Shown piece after piece: positions 9,519 to 52,387 of a stretch of 64,000 nt of DNA. Each line of letters opens with the position of its first letter. Position 1 is the first letter of the stretch. Under the pieces are notes generated by a model. It saw only the letters and a list, made by a program, of their open reading frames with translations. It was not told the origin of the DNA and searched no databases. The stretch is from Gaiellaceae bacterium (lineage in GTDB: Bacteria; Actinomycetota; Thermoleophilia; Gaiellales; Gaiellaceae), in NCBI GenBank assembly GCA_035708345.1, contig DASSSR010000009.1, forward strand, positions 25 through 64,024, written 5' to 3'. The translations under genes and the position numbers were made by a program.

Positions 9519-10832
9519 GTGAGGACGATCGCGGTGCTGTTCGCGGTCGCGCTGCTCTCCGGGGGTCTCGCGTCCGCCGCGGCGCCTCCGGGCGCCGTGC
9601 CGCGCGATTCGAGCCCCTGGTGGGCGCCGAAGGCGACGATGCTCGCGTTCGACCGCTCGTCGCCGGGGCCCGACGACGGCGACCTCCTCTTCACGCCGGC
9701 CGTGCGCGGCCCCGAGGTGGACATCCTCGGCGCCGGCCGCGTTCGCGGGTTCCGGCCGGGGAGCGGCGACCTGCTGCTCGAGACCGGCTCGTCCACGAGC
9801 GTCGTCGACGGCTCCGACCGGGAGCTGGGCCGGATCCCGGGCGTGGACGCGTCCTGGTCGCCCGACGGGTCGCACGTCGCGTTCCTCCAGGGCGACGCGC
9901 TCGCGGTCGCGGAGGCGAGCGGCGCGAACGTCCGTCAGCTCGCGGCGGGGATCGTCCCGCCGGAGCCCGACGTGACGGGGCCGGTGTGGTCGCCCGACGG
10001 GACGGCGGTCGCGATCGCGACCACCACGGCGGCCGGCTCGGCGATCCTCGTCGCGCCCGTCGACGGCACGCCGGCGCATGCCGCCTTCGACGGGCCGGGC
10101 GACAACGCCGACCCGAGCTGGTCGCGCGACGGCGCGACGATCGCGTTCGACCGCGACACGGGCGGGCGCTGGGCGGTCTGGACGGTCGCTCCCGACGGCA
10201 GCGGGGCGCAGGAGGCGGTCGGCGGCGACGCGAACAACCGGCTGCCGCAGTGGAGCCCGACCGACGACCGGCTCGCGTTCCTGAGCGACCGCGCCGGACC
10301 GTTCGGACTGTACGTCGGCACCGTCGGCGGCTCGCCGCTGAAGCTGATCGGCGACGTCGCGTCCGACGCTCCCGCGCGCTGGTCGCCGACGGGCACGGCG
10401 CTCGCGGTGTCGTCGGCGCGCGACTGCAAGCGGTTCGGCATCTACGTGGTGAGTGCGTCGGCACCGGTGCGGGCGGTGCGGCGGTCGAACCAGTGCCGGA
10501 TCGACGGCACGGCGGGCGGCGACCTCATCCACGGGACGCCGTACTACGACGTCGTCTACGGCTACGGCGGCAACGACTCGATCTTCACCGCCGGCGGCGA
10601 CGACGTGATCTACGGCGGACCGGGCAACGACGCGATCGGCGGCGGGCCGGGGAACGACGTCATCTACGGCGGACCGGGGAACGACGTCCTCTCGGGCAGC
10701 ACCGGGAACGACGTCATCTACGGCGGTCCGGGACGCGACAAGATCGGCTGCGGGCCGGGGAACGACACGGCGTACATCGGGCCGGGCGACACCGTGCGCG
10801 ACTGCGAGCACGTGCACCGCGGCCGCCGCTGA
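9519..10832 (+). CDS. Secreted TolB-like beta-propeller protein with C-terminal RTX (hemolysin-type Ca-binding) repeats
   Basis: Signal peptide present. Repeated WSPDG/WSRDG/WSPT..LAF blades (PD40-type). C-terminal nonapeptide repeats GGxGNDxIYGGPGNDxI occur about 6 times. Confidence 0.8.
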   Translation: MRTIAVLFAVALLSGGLASAAAPPGAVPRDSSPWWAPKATMLAFDRSSPGPDDGDLLFTPAVRGPEVDILGAGRVRGFRPGSGDLLLETGSSTSVVDGSDRELGRIPGVDASWSPDGSHVAFLQGDALAVAEASGANVRQLAAGIVPPEPDVTGPVWSPDGTAVAIATTTAAGSAILVAPVDGTPAHAAFDGPGDNADPSWSRDGATIAFDRDTGGRWAVWTVAPDGSGAQEAVGGDANNRLPQWSPTDDRLAFLSDRAGPFGLYVGTVGGSPLKLIGDVASDAPARWSPTGTALAVSSARDCKRFGIYVVSASAPVRAVRRSNQCRIDGTAGGDLIHGTPYYDVVYGYGGNDSIFTAGGDDVIYGGPGNDAIGGGPGNDVIYGGPGNDVLSGSTGNDVIYGGPGRDKIGCGPGNDTAYIGPGDTVRDCEHVHRGRR

Positions 10833-10865: not shown

Positions 10866-10910
10866 AGTGCCCCCGGCAAGAATCGAACTTGCGCACGCGG
10901 TTTAGGAAAC
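10866..10910. repeat. Left att direct repeat (a partial copy of the tRNA-Arg 3' half)
   Basis: agtgcccccggcaagaatcgaacttgcgcacgcggtttaggaaac is identical to 14553..14597. Confidence 0.95.
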
Positions 10911-14552: not shown

Positions 14553-14597
14553 AGTGCCCCCGGCAAGAATCGAACTTGCGCACGCGGTTTAGGAAAC
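14553..14597. repeat. Right att direct repeat (inside tRNA-Arg)
   Basis: Identical to 10866..10910. Confidence 0.95.
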
Positions 14598-14626
14598 CGC
14601 TGCTCTATCCACTGAGCTACGGGGGC
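14555..14626 (-). tRNA. tRNA-Arg (anticodon CCT)
   Basis: The minus-strand sequence GCCCCCGTAGCTCAGTGGATAGAGCAGCGGTTTCCTAAACCGCGTGCGCAAGTTCGATTCTTGCCGGGGGCA folds as a 72-nt cloverleaf: 7-bp acceptor stem, anticodon loop TTCCTAA, T-loop TTCGATT. CCA is not encoded. Confidence 0.95.
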
Positions 14627-47018: not shown

Positions 47019-48406
47019 GCCTGACGCGGAGGGCGGTCAGGTTCGTCGACCAGCGGAGCGCGAGCGCGCCGCTGCTGCGCAAGGTCGCGCGGTACCTCTT
47101 CCCGGACCACTGGTCGTTCCTGCTCGGCGAGGTCGCGCTCTACGCGTTCATGGTCCTCGTCGCGACGGGGATCTATCTGACGTTCTTCTTCGTCGACTCG
47201 ACGAAGGACACGGTCTACCACGGCCCGTACGTGCCGCTCCAGGGCCAGCACATGTCCGAGGCCTACAAGTCGGTGGTCGACATCTCGATGACGGTGAAGG
47301 CGGGCCTGCTGATCCGCCAGACGCACCACTGGGCGGCCGACGTCTTCGTCGCGGCGATCATCCTGCACCTCTTCCGCGTCTTCTTCACGGGCGCGTTCCG
47401 CAAGCCGCGCGGGCTGACGTGGATGTTCGGCGTGACGATGCTCATGCTGACGCTGCTCGAGGCGTACATGGGCTACTCGATGGTCGACGACCTGCTCTCG
47501 GGGATGGGGCTCGTGATCGGCTACTCGGTCGGGATGTCGATCCCCTTCATCGGCGCGAACCTGATGGAGTGGCTGTTCAAGGGGCCCTTCCCCGGGCAGC
47601 ACGCGTTCTGGCCGCGCATGTACATCGCGCACGTCCTGATCTTCCCGGTGCTGATCGGAATGCTGCTCTCCGTGCACCTGCTGCTCGTCGCGATGCGGCA
47701 TCACACGCAGTTCAAGCGGATGCGGGCGCAGAGCAACCACACGATCGTCGGCGTGCCGATGTACCCGGGACAGGCGCCGCGCTCGCTCGGGCTGCTCTTC
47801 GCCGTCGTCGCGATGCTCTTCCTGCTCGGGGGGCTCGTGCAGATCAACCCGATCTGGCTGTGGGGGCCGTACCACACGTACTCCTCGACGAACGGCGCGC
47901 AGCCGGACTGGTATCTCGGCTGGCTGATCGGCGGCCTGCGGCTGATGCCCGGCTTCGACGTCGTGATCGGCAAGTACACGCTCGTCCCGAACCCGTTCTG
48001 GGGCGGCGCCGCCTTCCCGATGATCGTCTTCGGGTTTCTCTACTTCTGGCCGTGGCTGGAGCGGCGGATCACCGGCGACCTGGGCTTCCACAACCTCGCG
48101 CAGCGCCCGCGCGACAACCCGATGCGCACCGGCGTCGGCGTCTGGATGATCACGTGGGTGCTGATCGTGTTCATCGCGGGCTCGTCCGACCGCGTCGAGG
48201 TGCTCTTCGACATCCCCTACGTGGGCCAGATCTGGTTCTACCGCTTCTTCAACCTCTTCTTCCCGATCGTCGCCGGCTTCGTCGCCTGGTGGGTCTGCAG
48301 GCAGCTGCAGAAGGGCGAGCCGGTCGAGGAGGATCGCCACAGGGCGGAGGCGGAAGCTAGGCTCGCCGCATGGTCGTCCGCACGGAGGCAGAGCTCCGAG
48401 ACCTGA
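47015..48406 (+). CDS. qcrB: Cytochrome b subunit of the bc1 complex
   Basis: GTG 47015 (GTGA overlap). The blocks FPDHWSFLLGEVALYAF.. and RQTHHWAADVFVAAIILHLFRVFFTGAFRKPR are typical actinobacterial QcrB. Confidence 0.95.
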   Translation: MSLTRRAVRFVDQRSASAPLLRKVARYLFPDHWSFLLGEVALYAFMVLVATGIYLTFFFVDSTKDTVYHGPYVPLQGQHMSEAYKSVVDISMTVKAGLLIRQTHHWAADVFVAAIILHLFRVFFTGAFRKPRGLTWMFGVTMLMLTLLEAYMGYSMVDDLLSGMGLVIGYSVGMSIPFIGANLMEWLFKGPFPGQHAFWPRMYIAHVLIFPVLIGMLLSVHLLLVAMRHHTQFKRMRAQSNHTIVGVPMYPGQAPRSLGLLFAVVAMLFLLGGLVQINPIWLWGPYHTYSSTNGAQPDWYLGWLIGGLRLMPGFDVVIGKYTLVPNPFWGGAAFPMIVFGFLYFWPWLERRITGDLGFHNLAQRPRDNPMRTGVGVWMITWVLIVFIAGSSDRVEVLFDIPYVGQIWFYRFFNLFFPIVAGFVAWWVCRQLQKGEPVEEDRHRAEAEARLAAWSSARRQSSET

Positions 48407-48987
48407 TCGGCTCGCCGAACGAGCTCGTGCAGGCGAAGGTCGCCGACCGATTGAACGAGCTGTCGCGGCGGTGGATCGAGCGCTCGCCGTTCGTGTGCGT
48501 CGCGACGGCGCGGCCGGACGGCGGACTGGACGTCTCGCCGCGCGGCGACCCGCCCGGCTTCGTGCGCGTCCTCGACGAGCGGACGCTGCTGCTGCCCGAG
48601 CGGCCCGGCAACAAGCTCGCCGACACGCTGACGAACCTGCTCGGCGACCCGCGGATCGCCCTGCTCTTCCTCGTGCCGGGCATCGGCGACACGTTCCGCG
48701 TCAACGGCCGCGCCCGGCTCGTCGACGACGCGGAGCTGCTGGAGCCGTGCGCGGTCGAGGGCAAGGTGCCGAGGCTCGGCATCCTCGTCGAGGTCGAGCA
48801 GGCGTACACGCAGTGCCCGAAGGCGCTGCTGCGCTCGGAGCTCTGGAACCCGGAGAAGCACGCCGACCCGTCCGAGCTGCCGAAGGCGTCGGAGATCCTC
48901 AAGGCGGTCGGCGCGCCCGAGCTCGACGTCGCCGAGTACGAGCGCGCGCGGGCCGGCCGCTACGCCCGCCGCGAAGGCTTCTACTAG
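48370..48987 (+). CDS. PPOX-class (pyridoxamine-5'-phosphate-oxidase-like) FMN/F420-binding flavoprotein
   Basis: 205 aa with SPFVCVATARPDGGLDVSPRGDPPGFV...PERPGNKLADTL..IALLFLVPGIGDTFRVNGRA. It overlaps the qcrB 3' end by 37 nt. Confidence 0.8.
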   Translation: MVVRTEAELRDLIGSPNELVQAKVADRLNELSRRWIERSPFVCVATARPDGGLDVSPRGDPPGFVRVLDERTLLLPERPGNKLADTLTNLLGDPRIALLFLVPGIGDTFRVNGRARLVDDAELLEPCAVEGKVPRLGILVEVEQAYTQCPKALLRSELWNPEKHADPSELPKASEILKAVGAPELDVAEYERARAGRYARREGFY

Positions 48988-49015
48988 CCGGCCCGCGCGC
49001 CGGCGGCGCCGCCGA

Positions 49016-49161
49016 GGCCGGTACTACTTACCGTCACGAAACCGTCAAAAAGAGGCGGCTGCCGCGCGTGCAGGCATTTCGTCGTCGGCGGTGACGGTGT
49101 CGTGACGAAGCGGCGAGGGTTCCGTTTGCGTACTACGTACCCGCAGGAGAGCGTCACGCGT
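49016..49161. repeat. Copy A of a tandemly duplicated ~146-nt structured element (unclassified)
   Basis: About 92% identical to 49204..49350. The core 49063..49135 is 73/73 identical to 49252..49324. Confidence 0.9.
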
Positions 49162-49203
49162 CGCCGGGCCGGAGGGCGCGGGGCTCGTACGAGCCGGCCA
49201 TAC

Positions 49204-49350
49204 GGCCGGTACTAAAGTACCGTCACGGAACCGTCACGGAGCGGCGGCTGTCGCGCGTGCAGGCATTTCGTCGTCGGCGGTGACGGTGTCGTGACGAAGC
49301 GGCGAGGGTTCCGTTTGCGTACTAGGTACCCGCCGGAGAGGGTCACGCGT
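49204..49350. repeat. Copy B of the same element. Its last 8 nt are the final codons and stop of the CMD-family gene.
   Basis: See copy A. The offset between copies is 188-189 nt. Confidence 0.9.
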
Positions 49351-49900
49351 AGCCGAGCTCGAAGAACCGCCCCTCGTGGGCGATCGCCTGCTCCCGGGTC
49401 AGGCCCTGCTCCGAGTGCGGCTTCGCGCCGAGCGTGTCGGCGTAGCGCGTGATCAGGTCGAAGGCCGCCTTCACCTCGACCGCCTCGCGCAGCGCCTCGC
49501 GCGTCACGCCCGCGGCGAGCGCGCGCGACGGGTCGAGCGTCGCGAGGAAGTGCAGCGTCCCGCGCAGCCGTTCGTCGACCGGCGCCGTCTCGTAGTCGCG
49601 CAGCACCCCGTCCACGAGCTCTGCGTCACCGAAGGCGTACGACGCGACCGCGCCGTGGGCCTCCGTTCAGAACGGACACTGGTTCTGCGCGGACACGAAG
49701 GCGGCGAAGAGCTCCCGCTCCGCCTCGCTCCACGCGGAGGGGCCCTTCATGATCTCCTGCATCAGCGCCCCGAACGGGCGTCCGAAGAGCTCCGGCCGGT
49801 AGCGCAGCGCGACCGAGATGTCCGAGACGTAGCCGTCGCGCTCGCGTAGCTCCGCGATCTGCGCGGCGGCGCTCGGGTCATGACGCAGCTCGAGCCTCAC
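49343..49900 (-). CDS. AhpD/carboxymuconolactone-decarboxylase (CMD)-family peroxidase-related protein with an in-frame TGA at the second active-site Cys position. Candidate selenoprotein (C-P-F-U-T-E-A-H).
   Basis: Track ORFs 49667..49900 and 49343..49615 are in the same frame. The read-through translation ..AFVSAQNQCPF[TGA]TEAHGAVASYAFGDAELVDGVLRDYE.. recreates the family motif CxxCxxxH. A hairpin follows the TGA. Confidence 0.7.
49639..49656 (-). promoter_or_regulatory. SECIS-like hairpin 10 nt downstream of the in-frame UGA
   Basis: ACGGCGC-GGUC-GCGUCGU forms a 7-bp stem (one G-U pair) with a GGUC apical loop. Confidence 0.45.
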
Positions 49901-50154
49901 GCGAGCGCCGCCAAAGCGCGTCGCCGCTCCGCCAGCGCGACGCCGAGCGCCGCCGCGAGCGCCGCCTCGACCACCACGTCGGCCTCGAGCCCGGCGACGT
50001 CCGCGTCGACGATCCGGTACGCGTGCCGCCGCACCTTCTCGAGCAGCGGCGCCAGCTCGGGCGGGTCGTCCCCCGCGAAGATCGCGCAGCGCTGCAGAGG
50101 CGTCAGCACTCCGGCGCCGCCGAGCGTCGCCTCACAGACCCCCTGCCAGCCCAC
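49897..50154 (-). CDS. Small hypothetical protein translationally coupled (GTGA) to the CMD-family gene
   Basis: 85-aa ORF whose stop overlaps GTG 49900. No motif was recognised. Confidence 0.45.
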   Translation of the reverse strand: MGWQGVCEATLGGAGVLTPLQRCAIFAGDDPPELAPLLEKVRRHAYRIVDADVAGLEADVVVEAALAAALGVALAERRRALAALA

Positions 50155-50209
50155 GCACCGACCCTACCGCAGCGAAACCGGCGGCACGACCCGCCCGTTG
50201 TCCCTGTAG

Positions 50210-52383
50210 ATGACCGGCCTCGACCCGATCGAGGCAGTCGTCGAGGCGCGCCGGGGACGCCGGCGCCGGGGGAAGCGTCCGCGGCGGCTGCTGCTCCTGA
50301 CCCTCCTGCTCGTCGTCGGCTCGGCGGTGGTCGTCGCGGCCGCCGCGGGCGGCGCGCGCTGGTATCTCTCCCGCTGCACGCTCGACGGGCGCACGGCGGC
50401 CCCGCTCGGCCGCACCTCCGTCGTCTACGCCGCCGACGGGACGTACCTCGGCGCGATCCACGCGGACACCTATCGCCGCGTCGTCCCGGACTCGAGGATC
50501 TCTCCCTGGCTGAAGAAGGCGACGGTCGCGATCGAGGACCGCCGCTTCTGGACGAACCCGGGCGTCGACTACCGCGGCCTCGCGCGCGCGGCCGTGCAGG
50601 ACGTGCTCGCCGGTCACATCGTCCAGGGCGGCTCGACGATCACGCAGCAGCTCGTGCGCAGCATGTACCTCGACGACTCGCGCACCTTCGCGCGAAAGCG
50701 GCTCGAAGCGTGCCTCGCGCTGAAGCTGACGCGGCGCTGGCCGAAGGAGCGGATCCTGACGACCTACCTGAACCGGGCGCCCTACGGCCACCGCGCGTAC
50801 GGCGTCGAGGCGGCCGCGTGGACGTACTTCGACCGTCCCGCCGCGAAGCTCGGGCCTGCGCAGGCGGCGCTGATCGCCGGGCTGCCGCAGGCGCCGTCGC
50901 GCTACGACCCGCTCGTCCATCCCGCGCAGGCGCTCGCGCGGCGCAACGAGGTGCTGCGGGCGCTCGTCGGCGCCGGCGCGCTGACCCGGGCGCGCTACCG
51001 GCGACTCGTCGCGCGGCCGCTCGGCCTGCACCCGGGCCGCGTCTACACGCTCCGCCGCGCGCCGACGTTCTTCTCGTACGTTCGCAGCGAACTGGTGCGC
51101 GTCTACGGCGAGCAGCGCGTGCGACAGGGCGGCCTCCGCGTCTACACGACGCTCGTCCCACGCGACCAGCGCGCCGCGCGCAGCGCGATCCGCTCGGTGC
51201 TGAACCGGAAGCACGACCCGGCCGGCGCGGTCGCGTCCGTCGACCCGCGCACGGGGGCGATCCGGGCGCTCGTCGGCGTCGTGCACGGCAGGCGGCTCGA
51301 CTTCGACCTCGCCGTCTCGGGCCGCCGGCAGGCAGGCTCCGCGTTCAAGACGTTCGTGCTGGCGGCCGCGATCGCGCGCGGCGCGAATCCCTACTCGACG
51401 AAGTACCTGTCGGCGCCGTTCTCCGTCGCGCTGGCGAACGGGACGACCTGGAGGCCGCACACCTACGAGAACGCGTTCTTCGGCGTCGAGAACCTCGTGC
51501 GGGCGACGCTCCTCTCCGACAACGTCGTCTACGCGAAGCTGACGCTCGACGTCGGCGCGCAGCACGTCGCGCAGATGGCGCACCGCCTCGGCGTGCGCTC
51601 GCCGCTCGACCCGGTCGCCTCGATCGGCCTCGGCGCGGACGCCGTCTCGCCGCTCGACATGGCGTCCGCGTACGCGACGCTCGCCGCCGGCGGCGTCTAC
51701 CGCGCACCGCACGCGATCCGCAAGGTCGTGCTCCCGGACGGGGCGGTCGACACGAGCCACCGCTGGACGGCGCCGCCGAAGCACGCCGTCCCGCGCAACG
51801 TCGCCTACTGGGTGACGCGCGTCCTGCAGGCGAACGTCGAGCGCGGCACCGGCACGGCGGCCCGGCTGCCGCGTCGCGCCGTCGCGGGCAAGACCGGCAC
51901 GACGAGCGACTGGACGGACGGCTGGTTCGTCGGCTACACGCGCCGCCTCGCCGCGGCGGCATGGGTCGGCTACCCGCACCGAACGGTGCCGATGACGGAC
52001 GTGCACGGCATCCACGTCACCGGCGGCAGCCTCCCGGCGCAGATCTGGGCGCGCTACGCGAAGGCGTCGCTCCGCGGCAAGCCCGCCGCCGGCTGGCTGC
52101 AGCCGCTGCGGCCGATGCGCTGGCGGCCGTGGCACGGCGAGCGCCGCTACGTTCCGCGCAGGCCGAAGGCGAAGCCGGGCAGCTACGTGCTCGTGCTGAG
52201 CTCGTTCCGGCCGACGCACCTGCACGAGGCCCAGAGCCGCGCGCACGCGATCGGTGCGAAGGTCACGCGCTCCGGCCGGATTCCGGGCCTGCGGCCGGGC
52301 TGGGTCGTCGTCTACGCCGGCCCGTTCGCGACCGAGAGCGCCGCGCGGGCCGCGCGCGACCGCTTCGCCCGCGGCATCGTCCG

Positions 52384-52387
<4 letters not shown>
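50210..52387 (+). CDS. Class A penicillin-binding protein (GT51 transglycosylase plus transpeptidase) with a C-terminal SPOR domain
   Basis: GT51 block [30 protein letters not shown]. Transpeptidase motifs SAFK, SDN and KTGTT. SPOR-like tail YVLVLSSFR...[19 protein letters not shown]. Confidence 0.95.

What the first reader, a model, noticed from the sequence alone, without database searches (positions are those of the whole stretch)
49016..49350. Tandemly duplicated ~146-nt structured element with a 73-nt perfectly identical core between convergent genes
The 355-nt gap between the PPOX gene stop (48987) and the CMD-family gene stop (49343) contains two direct copies of one element, at 49016..49161 and 49204..49350. 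The offset is 188-189 nt and there are about 12 differences. The core 49063..49135 equals 49252..49324 with no mismatch.
Structural features within each copy:
- CGTCACG(A/G)AACCGTCA can pair with TGACGGTGTCGTGACG about 45 nt downstream, giving 16 positions with one mismatch. The A/G difference between copies changes an A-U pair to a G-U pair, so pairing is preserved.
- The enclosed GCGGCTG(C/T)CGC mini-hairpin also stays pairable.
- Each copy starts and ends with AT-containing mini-palindromes (GGTA-CTAC-TACC or GGTAC-TAAA-GTACC, and GTAC-TA(C/G)-GTAC) that stand out in this GC-rich DNA.
- In copy B the segment ACGGAACC can alternatively pair with GGTTCCGT (49308..49315).
The last 8 nt of copy B are the final two codons and the stop of the CMD gene (tac gcg tga). 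Copy A carries the variant gac gcg tga, followed by weakly similar sequence. This suggests a 188-nt tandem duplication of the gene's 3' end plus its 3' flank. The non-coding part has stayed far better conserved than the ex-coding part, which argues for function. Candidates are a 3'-UTR-derived or independent sRNA, a protein-binding array (repeated GTCAC/GTGAC half-sites) or an unusual terminator module. I could not match it to any RNA family I know.
Basis: seen in the sequence. Interest (0 to 1): 0.7.

Follow-up and report, generated by a model that had tools for sequence, protein, structure and literature searches.

The report
Orphan tandem duplication of a palindromic spacer
The two near-identical 146-nt copies are real, but they are a tandem duplication found only in this genome, in fast-changing non-coding DNA between two converging genes, and nothing shows that they form a conserved RNA or a protein-binding device.

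Summary
Copies lie at 49016-49161 and 49204-49350, offset by 188/189 nt, with 12 differences and an identical 73-nt core. This is the only long-period tandem repeat in the window.

The source is a Gaiellaceae MAG. Twelve syntenic contigs from the closest relatives have flanking genes 87-90% identical in DNA. Their homology stops exactly at the PPOX stop and resumes 5 nt before the CMD stop. Their spacers are 74 or 139 nt long and unrelated to the element.

No other copy was found:
- none elsewhere in the window (BLAST and a covariance model);
- none in the searched genome, metagenome, viral, plasmid or phage collections;
- no Rfam match.

Folding energies equal those of shuffled sequence. The minus-strand small ORFs are non-coding (GC3 0.73-0.76 against 0.92-0.98 in real genes).

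Copy A keeps a decayed copy of the CMD gene end, so a 189-bp duplication of gene end plus 3' flank is supported. The perfect core covers only the 3' half of the hairpin. That fits gene conversion between adjacent repeats better than selection on a structure.

The most likely role is a generic hairpin without a U-tract at converging 3' ends. Interest is low.

Side finding: the CMD gene is an AhpD-like CxxU selenoprotein with a conserved UGA and a SECIS hairpin.

The parts
49016..49161 (.). Repeat copy A (146 nt), proximal to PPOX
   Evidence: covariance model R1 scores 157.8 bits
49204..49350 (.). Repeat copy B (147 nt). Its last 8 nt are the final codons and stop of the CMD gene.
   Evidence: R1 scores 157.9 bits
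49063..49135 (.). 73-nt tract of copy A identical to 49252-49324 in copy B. I read it as a gene-conversion tract (inferred).
   Evidence: run-length test
49252..49324 (.). The matching 73-nt identical tract in copy B
49032..49107 (.). Main hairpin of copy A: 16-nt arms 49032-49047 and 49092-49107 with one A/G mismatch and a 44-nt loop. Each arm holds two (C)GTCA(C) units 11 nt apart.
   Evidence: (I8)
49221..49296 (.). Main hairpin of copy B: 17-nt arms 49221-49237 and 49280-49296, 88% complementary. The 5' arm is the perfect 11-nt tandem ACCGTCACGGA x2.
   Evidence: (I10)
49162..49188 (-). Decayed copy of the last codons of the CMD gene, attached to copy A (16/27 identical to 49351-49377)
   Evidence: P = 0.004; for the ancestral GAGCG|TCA junction
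49189..49203 (.). Junction segment between the copies. It forms short palindromes with its flanks (GGCTCGTACGAGCC, CCGGCCATACGGCCGG) and has no similarity to the CMD gene.
48944..49000 (+). Perfect 14-bp GC stem (48944-48957 and 48987-49000) spanning the PPOX stop codon. Its 3' arm is the first 14 nt of the lineage-specific spacer.
   Evidence: (I16)
48370..48987 (+). PPOX / PNPOx-family gene (left flank). It is 100% identical to a Gaiellaceae MAG protein.
49343..49900 (-). CMD/AhpD-like gene (right flank) read through the in-frame TGA at 49667-49669 (CPF-U-TEAH). The SECIS-like hairpin lies at 49639-49656.

Best explanation
The locus is a young, lineage-specific stretch of non-coding palindromic DNA between the 3' ends of two convergent genes. 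The genes are PPOX on the + strand and an AhpD-like selenoprotein gene on the - strand.

**Origin.** The stretch has undergone one tandem duplication of about 189 bp. The duplicated unit was the last 15-30 nt of the AhpD-like gene plus about 140 nt of its 3' flank.

**The perfect core.** The 73-nt identical tract is best explained by concerted evolution, that is, a gene-conversion or unequal-exchange tract between the two adjacent repeats. Selection on a specific RNA or operator explains it less well.

**Likely role.** If the DNA does anything, the 16-17-bp stem-loops act generically. They would form hairpins without a U-tract ('I-shaped') that stop or stall converging transcription and protect both mRNA 3' ends. 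The duplication would simply place two such hairpins in series.

**Shown and inferred.**
- Shown: the duplication and its boundaries, its absence from relatives, its non-coding status, and the absence of any family match.
- Inferred: gene conversion and the terminator or stabiliser role.
For: 1. **Duplication and unit.** The degenerate gene end in copy A matches the CMD end at 16 of 27 positions (P = 0.004). Copy A also keeps the GAGCG|TCA junction found in relatives.
2. **Lineage-specific.** Contigs L007-L017 and L019 show the same gene order (qcrB, PPOX, then convergent CMD, ORF85 and aconitase). Their flanks are 87-90% identical in DNA. The homology breaks exactly at 48987 and resumes at 49338.
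3. **Unrelated spacers in relatives.** Their spacers are 74 or 139 nt, and alignment scores against the element fall within shuffle nulls. At least three different spacers occupy this site in close relatives, so turnover here is fast.
4. **No other copy found.** None in the window or in the 16 loci searched with covariance model R1, apart from a locus pre-selected by a pattern scan. No true match for the core 20/21-mers, an 18-mer or a gapped stem pattern in the genome, metagenome or viral scans, nor for the element by BLAST against plasmids and phages.
5. **No RNA signal.** No Rfam family at E <= 10 other than miRNA noise on the hairpin. Fold z-scores are about 0.
6. **Asymmetric identity.** The identical tract covers the 3' arm and downstream sequence. 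The 5' arm and the adjacent loop carry 9 differences in 47 nt. The clustering is significant, and its contiguous, asymmetric shape fits a conversion tract.
7. **Termination context.** The consensus scan found no more hairpin-plus-T-run (canonical) terminators than in shuffled sequence across about 35 kb of the window. The relatives' unrelated spacers also fold into hairpins. Both are consistent with a generic, sequence-independent role.
Against: - The non-coding part is 0-19% diverged while the ex-coding part is about 41% diverged. Purifying selection on the element would also predict this contrast, and conversion is inferred rather than demonstrated.
- GTCAC units at 11-bp spacing are enriched: 3 matches against 0.21 expected. 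The region is the densest GTCAC/GTGAC cluster in the window. This hints at protein binding.
- No U-tract follows the hairpins on either strand, and termination was not measured.
- Only 64 kb of this genome could be searched, so dispersed copies elsewhere cannot be excluded.
Confidence: 0.55

Rival explanations
1. The element is a MITE-, REP- or PATE-like mobile palindromic element that inserted into the spacer and was then duplicated. Its imperfect terminal inverted repeats and subterminal GTAC mini-hairpins would be transposase recognition features.
For: - The ends are imperfect inverted repeats: 49216-49235 against 49304-49323, 20 nt at 75% complementarity (I13).
- Similar GTAC-loop-GTAC mini-palindromes sit near both ends.
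- The whole unit folds back on itself.
- The spacer is non-homologous to those of close relatives, so the DNA must have come from somewhere.
- Sites between convergent genes are classic landing sites for REP and MITE elements (established knowledge).
Against: - No third copy in 64 kb by BLAST or covariance model.
- No true match for core 18-21-mers in 596 Gb of representative genomes, JGI metagenomes or viral contigs.
- No target-site duplication is visible.
- The repeat unit includes the end of the CMD gene, which points to a local duplication and not to two insertions.
- No match in plasmids or phages.
Confidence: 0.12
2. The element is a functional structured RNA. It would be a 3'-UTR element or a 3'-UTR-derived sRNA of the AhpD-like selenoprotein mRNA (- strand) or of the PPOX mRNA (+ strand), present in two copies.
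For: - A long stem plus a second hairpin in each copy.
- The core is far better preserved between copies than the ex-coding part.
- The A to G change keeps a G-U pair on the + strand.
Against: - No Rfam match.
- No homolog in any relative, so covariation cannot be tested and conservation fails.
- Fold stability is not above shuffles.
- The identical tract covers only one arm of the stem.
- No promoter-like or terminator-like signal. By eye, the core holds no TANNNT -10 hexamer on either strand.
- On the - strand the A to G change would give a C-A mismatch.
Confidence: 0.12
3. The element is a protein-binding array. Phased (C)GTCAC(G) units, two direct and two inverted per copy at 11-bp spacing, would bind a winged-helix (OmpR/PhoB-type) or other regulator or a nucleoid protein.
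For: - GTCAC-N6-GTCAC occurs 3 times against 0.21 expected, and only here in the window.
- There are 9 GTCAC/GTGAC in 350 nt against a window mean of 0.54.
- A Chloroflexota MAG (L023 4985-5090) carries CGTCACG-type units at exact 11-nt spacing, five direct (one degenerate, ATCAC) and three inverted, between nadB-like and nadC genes.
- An 11-bp phase is typical of OmpR-family operators such as the actinobacterial MtrA and PhoP boxes (my own knowledge, not tested).
Against: - The site lies between two 3' ends, with no promoter to regulate.
- The second unit is GTCAA in copy A.
- The counts are inflated by the duplication and by the hairpin symmetry.
- The Chloroflexota hit was selected by the very pattern it matches, and one such hit is compatible with chance among the many long hairpins in 596 Gb.
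- The array is absent from relatives that share the same flanking genes.
Confidence: 0.08
4. The repeats carry MIRU-like small ORFs that are translationally coupled. Each repeat would encode a small peptide on the - strand (49212-49346, 44 aa; 48984-49157, 57 aa). The first GTG overlaps the CMD stop as GTGA.
For: - Both copies keep the frame open.
- A GTGA overlap also links ORF85 to CMD.
- By my hand count, about four of the roughly nine nucleotide differences within the ORF are synonymous.
Against: - GC3 is 0.73-0.76 against 0.92-0.98 in neighbouring genes.
- No Pfam family.
- No homolog among 1.84 billion representatives. The single hit is a low-GC repeat artefact.
- By my estimate, an open 44-codon frame has a chance probability of about 0.3 at this GC content.
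- Relatives lack the GTG start.
Confidence: 0.03
5. The duplication is an assembly artefact, with two strain variants of a single-copy spacer concatenated by the metagenome assembler.
For: - The source is a short-read MAG.
- The identical core (73 nt) is shorter than typical final k-mers, so the assembler could thread two variants.
Against: - The junction (49162-49203) is unique sequence. It is neither the PPOX flank nor the intact CMD end. Reads carrying that junction must exist.
- The decayed gene end is not what a strain allele of a coding region looks like.
Confidence: 0.05

Closest known systems
Intergenic minisatellites / VNTRs of actinobacteria (MIRU and ETR type loci of Mycobacterium)
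   Same: - Head-to-tail repeats in an intergenic spacer of a high-GC actinobacterium.
- The repeat boundary overlaps a gene's stop codon.
- A small ORF overlaps the neighbouring stop as GTGA.
   Different: - The period is 189 nt, against about 50-100 nt.
- There are only two copies.
- It is a single locus with no dispersed family.
- The small ORFs do not look coding.
- It lies between convergent genes, not inside an operon.
REP/BIME and MITE-type palindromic extragenic elements (for example E. coli REP, Neisseria Correia elements)
   Same: - Imperfect palindromes at gene 3' ends and between convergent genes.
- They can act as 3'-UTR stabilisers or terminators. A 2026 bioRxiv paper (doi 10.64898/2026.03.23.713779), seen in the listing and read only as its abstract, has the title 'Repetitive extragenic palindrome (REP) elements are local, context-dependent, dual 3'UTR regulators in Escherichia coli'.
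   Different: - These families are defined by many dispersed copies. Here there are two adjacent copies and none elsewhere in anything searched.
- No target-site duplication and no associated transposase were seen.
U-tract-less ('I-shaped') hairpin terminators of high-GC actinobacteria
   Same: - GC-rich stem-loops shortly after stop codons, without a T-run.
- The consensus scan found no more canonical terminators than in shuffled sequence across about 35 kb of the window.
   Different: - The stem encloses a 42-44-nt structured loop, much larger than a typical terminator loop.
- Function is untested.
- Whether such hairpins terminate at all is debated in mycobacteria (my own knowledge).
Direct-repeat operators of OmpR/PhoB-family response regulators (MtrA, PhoP boxes)
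   Same: GTCAC-containing units repeated with 11-bp phase.
   Different: - The array is not upstream of any gene.
- The units are arranged as a long inverted repeat.
- No cognate regulator was identified.
- The resemblance is recalled from knowledge and was not tested.

Membership tests
Rfam structured RNA families | Match to a curated covariance model | tested here: not met
   cmscan of 48500-49900 at E <= 10 gave only sub-threshold miRNA/snoRNA noise, at 21 bits against gathering scores of 80-95.
Novel structured RNA | Homologs in other genomes with compensatory base changes | tested here: not met
   No homolog in 12 syntenic relatives or in any collection. Between the two copies there is only one one-sided A-U to G-U change.
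Novel structured RNA | Folding energy clearly below shuffled controls | tested here: not met
   z = +0.06, -1.52, +0.16 and +0.03 for the two copies on both strands.
MITE / REP-like mobile palindromic element | Multiple dispersed copies in the genome | tested here: inconclusive
   None in the 64-kb window and none in the genome, metagenome or viral scans. The rest of this MAG could not be searched.
MITE / REP-like mobile palindromic element | Terminal inverted repeats and target-site duplication | tested here: inconclusive
   Imperfect 20-nt inverted ends at 75% complementarity (I13). No flanking direct duplication is visible.
Tandem duplication / VNTR | Head-to-tail direct copies with a defined period | tested here: met
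   TRF: period 189, 1.8 copies, 91% matches, score 587.
Tandem duplication / VNTR | The unit carries recognisable flanking sequence (the gene end) into the new copy | tested here: met
   49153-49188 against 49342-49377. The GTCACGCGT block is followed by a 16/27 match, P = 0.004.
Tandem duplication / VNTR | Copy-number variation among strains | not testable with these tools
   No contig of the same species other than the source is on record.
Canonical intrinsic terminator | GC-rich hairpin followed by a T/U tract | tested here: not met
   No terminator-like site in 48600-50300 on either strand.
OmpR/PhoB-type operator array | Direct repeats with 10-11 bp phase | tested here: met
   GTCAC-N6-GTCAC occurs 3 times against 0.21 expected.
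OmpR/PhoB-type operator array | Position at or upstream of a regulated promoter | tested here: not met
   The array lies between two stop codons and no promoter-like site was found.
Small protein gene | Codon-position GC bias of the host, and homologs | tested here: not met
   GC3 is 0.73-0.76 against 0.92-0.98. No Pfam family. No true homolog among 1.84 billion representatives.
AhpD-like 2 selenoprotein (flanking gene, side finding) | pfam02627 domain with a CxxU motif | tested here: met
   CMD domain at E = 1.1e-8. The motif reads C-P-F-TGA-T-E-A-H. The family is listed as pfam02627, CxxU in PMC2398784.
AhpD-like 2 selenoprotein (flanking gene, side finding) | Conserved in-frame UGA, Cys in some homologs, and a SECIS hairpin just downstream | tested here: met
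   TGA is present in 7 of 7 related loci. The hairpin with a GGUC loop about 13 nt after the UGA is near-invariant. The M. marinum homolog has Cys.
AhpD-like 2 selenoprotein (flanking gene, side finding) | selA, selB, selD and tRNA-Sec present in the genome | not tested
   Only tRNA-Arg is found in the window. The rest of the genome was not available.

The most novel reading that the evidence does not exclude
The duplicated module could be a new, narrowly distributed cis-acting device. One version is an array of 11-bp-phased CGTCACG units arranged as a long inverted repeat. It would be bound by a regulator or nucleoid protein, or would extrude as a cruciform, to block converging transcription. 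A similar array sits between nadB-like and nadC genes in a Chloroflexota MAG. The other version is a 3'-UTR-derived sRNA of a selenoprotein mRNA. In both versions selection, not gene conversion, keeps the core identical.
Probability: 0.1. Interest if true: 0.45.

Novelty: new member of a known kind. Interest (0 to 1): 0.17.

Why it matters
As it stands this matters little. It is an example of how quickly the spacers between convergent genes turn over in Gaiellaceae: at least three unrelated spacers occupy the same site in genomes that are about 89% identical in the flanks. It also shows how a local tandem duplication followed by homogenisation can mimic a 'conserved core'. It is a useful caution against reading identity between paralogous copies as functional constraint.

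If the minority reading were true, it would add an orphan regulatory or roadblock module to a poorly studied actinobacterial lineage. The side finding corrects an annotation: the 'split' CMD gene is one AhpD-like CxxU selenoprotein gene.

Tried and rejected
- **Rfam scan at a permissive threshold:** noise only.
- **BLAST against plasmids and phages:** nothing.
- **Exact core 21-mer in GTDB genomes:** nothing.
- **Exact core 20-mer in JGI metagenomes:** two 20-nt chance hits with no extension.
- **Two 18-mers in viral contigs:** none, or chance hits.
- **Gapped stem pattern in genomes:** one Chloroflexota locus. The covariance-model score of 33 bits is explained by the pre-selected arms. I treat it as an analogue, not a homolog.
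- **Element downstream of CMD homologs elsewhere (L001-L004):** absent, and the synteny differs.
- **Weak homology to the 139-nt and 74-nt spacers of relatives:** alignment scores fall within shuffle nulls.
- **Small-ORF hypothesis:** rejected on GC3 and on the lack of homologs. The only phmmer hit (P0209) is a 59-aa-period low-GC repeat artefact.
- **SECIS-in-3'-UTR idea:** rejected. The real SECIS sits directly after the in-frame UGA, and I saw no hairpin with a GGUC loop in the element when reading its sequence.
- **integron attC site or promoter:** rejected by eye; I saw no core motifs and no conserved TANNNT.
- **Exact-protein look-ups for same-species contigs (PPOX, CMD C-terminal part):** nothing on record. 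Copy-number polymorphism could therefore not be examined.

Full report
**1. The observation**

The region was read directly.
- PPOX (48370-48987, + strand; PNPOx_N, E = 1.5e-18) and the CMD-family gene (- strand, stop at 49343-49345) converge on a 355-nt spacer.
- The repeat finder reports a direct repeat of 160 nt at 88% identity with 189-nt spacing (49029-49188 and 49218-49377), plus the shared GGCCGGTACTA start at 49016 and 49204.
- TRF gives period 189, 1.8 copies, 91% matches and score 587. This is the only long-period array in the 64-kb window.
- The pairwise alignment shows 12 differences over the 146/147-nt copies.
- The ungapped comparison places the identical tract at exactly 49063-49135 = 49252-49324.
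- The 16/17-nt inverted arms and the alternative ACGGAACC/GGTTCCGT pairing are present (I8, I10, I13).

The clustering of differences is not random. P is about 0.002 for a 73-nt clean run given 12 differences in 146 nt, and about 2e-5 over the 173-nt repeat.

**2. What the sequence is not**

- *A known RNA family.* cmscan at E <= 10 gave only sub-threshold miRNA and snoRNA noise.
- *Unusually stable.* RNA z-scores are +0.06, -1.52, +0.16 and +0.03 for the two copies on both strands. DNA z-scores are -0.54 and -0.40.
- *An exceptional hairpin.* Hairpins with 14-nt arms and at most one mismatch occur 19 times in the window.
- *A promoter or canonical terminator.* No promoter-like or hairpin-plus-T-run terminator site lies in 48600-50300. 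Across about 35 kb of the window the same scan found no more terminator-like sites than in shuffled sequence.
- *Coding.* The two minus-strand ORFs (49212-49346 and 48984-49157) have GC3 of 0.73-0.76, against 0.92-0.98 in the four neighbouring genes. They match no Pfam family. The only hit among 1.84 billion representative proteins is a low-GC 59-aa repeat artefact.

**3. Where it comes from and whether relatives have it**

The PPOX protein is 100% identical to a protein of a 'Gaiellaceae bacterium' MAG on a 64,147-nt contig.

Contigs encoding the closest PPOX homologs (89-93% amino-acid identity) were fetched.
- Twelve of them (L007-L017 and L019) show the same local gene order: qcrB, PPOX, then the convergent CMD C-terminal part, CMD N-terminal part and ORF85, with aconitase next wherever the contig extends that far.
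- BLASTN shows 87-90% DNA identity in the flanks. Homology ends exactly at 48987-48990 and resumes at 49338-49341.
- Between those points the relatives have 74 nt (eleven contigs, identical to one another) or 139 nt (L007).
- These spacers are unrelated to the element, with local alignment scores inside shuffle nulls on both strands. By eye they are also unrelated to each other.
- A further contig (L018) has different DNA after PPOX.

So at least three different spacers occupy this site in genomes that are about 89% identical in the flanks. The element is specific to this lineage.

**4. Searches for other copies**

- BLASTN and a covariance model built from the two copies (R1, 131 positions, 43 pairs) find only the two copies, in the window and in the 16 loci searched with R1.
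- No match in plasmids or phages.
- The core 21-mer is absent from 596 Gb of species-representative genomes.
- A 20-mer gave two bare chance hits in JGI metagenomes.
- Two 18-mers gave nothing or chance hits in viral contigs.
- A gapped pattern for the two stem arms found one locus, in a Chloroflexota MAG (L023). There CGTCACG-type units repeat at exact 11-nt spacing, five direct (one degenerate, ATCAC) and three inverted, between a nadB-like gene and nadC.
- Model R1 scores that locus at only 33 bits, essentially the pre-selected arms. I treat it as an architectural analogue or a chance hit, not a homolog.

**5. Origin**

- Copy A is followed by GTCACGCGT and then 27 nt that match the last codons of CMD at 16 of 27 positions (P = 0.004).
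- Copy A keeps GAGCG before TCA, as in relatives, while copy B has GAGGG.

It argues against two independent insertions of a mobile element.

An assembly artefact is unlikely. The junction (49162-49203) is unique sequence that matches neither the PPOX flank nor the intact CMD end.

**6. Why the core is identical**

Divergence between the copies is strongly graded:

| Segment (copy A coordinates) | Differences | Divergence |
|---|---|---|
| 49016-49062 | 9 in 47 nt | about 19% |
| 49063-49135 (core) | 0 in 73 nt | 0% |
| 49136-49161 | 3 in 26 nt | about 11% |
| 49162-49188 (ex-coding) | 11 in 27 nt | 41% |
| beyond 49188 | | random level |

Selection could produce such a gradient, but two points argue against it.
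- The clean tract covers the 3' arm of the stem and not its 5' partner, which an RNA-stem constraint would not predict.
- The second GTCAC unit is GTCAA in copy A, so a half-site constraint is not kept either.

A single contiguous conversion tract between adjacent direct repeats explains a perfectly clean block with sharp edges. This is an inference, not a demonstration.

**7. Most likely function**

The spacer lies where two transcription units collide, and the scan gave no sign of canonical terminators in this window. The unrelated spacers of relatives also fold into hairpins.

The best-supported role is therefore generic. The stem-loops would act as U-tract-less barriers or 3'-end protectors for both mRNAs, with the duplication itself neutral. 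My confidence is about 0.55.

The rivals and my confidence in each:

| Rival | Confidence |
|---|---|
| Mobile palindromic element | 0.12 |
| Functional RNA | 0.12 |
| Phased protein-binding array (GTCAC-N6-GTCAC 3 times against 0.21 expected; densest GTCAC cluster) | 0.08 |
| Assembly artefact | 0.05 |
| Coupled small ORFs | 0.03 |

**8. Comparison with known kinds**

It works most like an intergenic VNTR or tandem duplication of a palindromic 3' spacer.
- It resembles REP/MITE elements in shape and position. It fails, as far as could be tested, their defining property of dispersed multiplicity.
- It resembles OmpR-type operators only in the 11-bp phasing and fails on position.
- It is not a member of any Rfam family.

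**9. Side finding**

The 'CMD' gene is annotated in relatives as two ORFs, but it is one gene (49343-49900, - strand) with an in-frame TGA at 49667-49669. The TGA stands in the second position of the CxxC motif (NQ-C-P-F-TGA-TEAHG).
- The TGA is present in 7 of 7 related loci, including ones only 77-79% identical.
- It is followed about 13 nt later by a near-invariant hairpin, CGGCGC-GGUC-GCGUCG.
- Some database homologs read the codon as Trp or stop there, and a Mycobacterium marinum homolog has Cys.

This matches the known 'AhpD-like 2' selenoprotein family (pfam02627, CxxU) listed in PMC2398784.

**10. Verdict**

The repeat is real, but it is an ordinary kind of feature: an orphan, lineage-specific tandem duplication with a homogenised core. 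Interest is low.

Noticed in passing
window 49343-49900 (-); TGA at 49667-49669; hairpin at 49639-49656: The CMD gene is a single AhpD-like selenoprotein gene with a CxxU motif. The in-frame TGA is conserved in 7 of 7 relatives and is followed by a near-invariant SECIS-like hairpin with a GGUC loop. Gene callers split it into 77-aa and 90-aa ORFs, or read the TGA as Trp.
   Followed up: partly
window 10866-10910 and 14553-14597: A perfect 45-nt direct repeat. The second copy is the 3' part of tRNA-Arg(CCT) (14554-14626, - strand). It looks like attL/attR of a 3.6-kb integrated islet. The islet region also holds 27-nt-period repeats at 10514-10822, apparently of the RTX/nonapeptide type (not verified).
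   Followed up: no
window 50176-52382: A 2.2-kb segment carrying a class A PBP-like gene (50210-52387, + strand; transglycosylase motif seen by eye) lies between ORF85 and aconitase. In relatives (L008, L009) only 11 nt separate those two genes. This is a second lineage-specific rearrangement at the same locus.
   Followed up: partly
window 49897-50154 (-), ORF85: This ORF has no Pfam family and overlaps the CMD start as GTGA. In other Gaiellaceae proteins (P0048, P0054, P0067, P0076) a homologous segment is fused downstream of the ...FFELGYA end of a CMD-like protein. That suggests domain shuffling or tandem paralogs in the family.
   Followed up: no
window 48944-48957 / 48987-49000: A perfect 14-bp GC stem spans the PPOX stop codon. 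Its 3' arm is the first 14 nt of the lineage-specific spacer and pairs with coding sequence.
   Followed up: no
L023 4985-5090 (Chloroflexota MAG DATGER010000257.1): An array of CGTCACG-type units at exact 11-nt spacing, five direct (one degenerate, ATCAC) then three inverted, lies in the 130-nt spacer between a nadB-like gene and nadC. It could be an operator or an intercistronic hairpin. Its nature is unknown.
   Followed up: partly
L007 1358-1496 and L008 3616-3689: The orthologous spacers of close relatives appear unrelated to each other (by eye) and show no detectable similarity to the window. All are hairpin-rich. Turnover at this convergent junction is unusually fast.
   Followed up: partly
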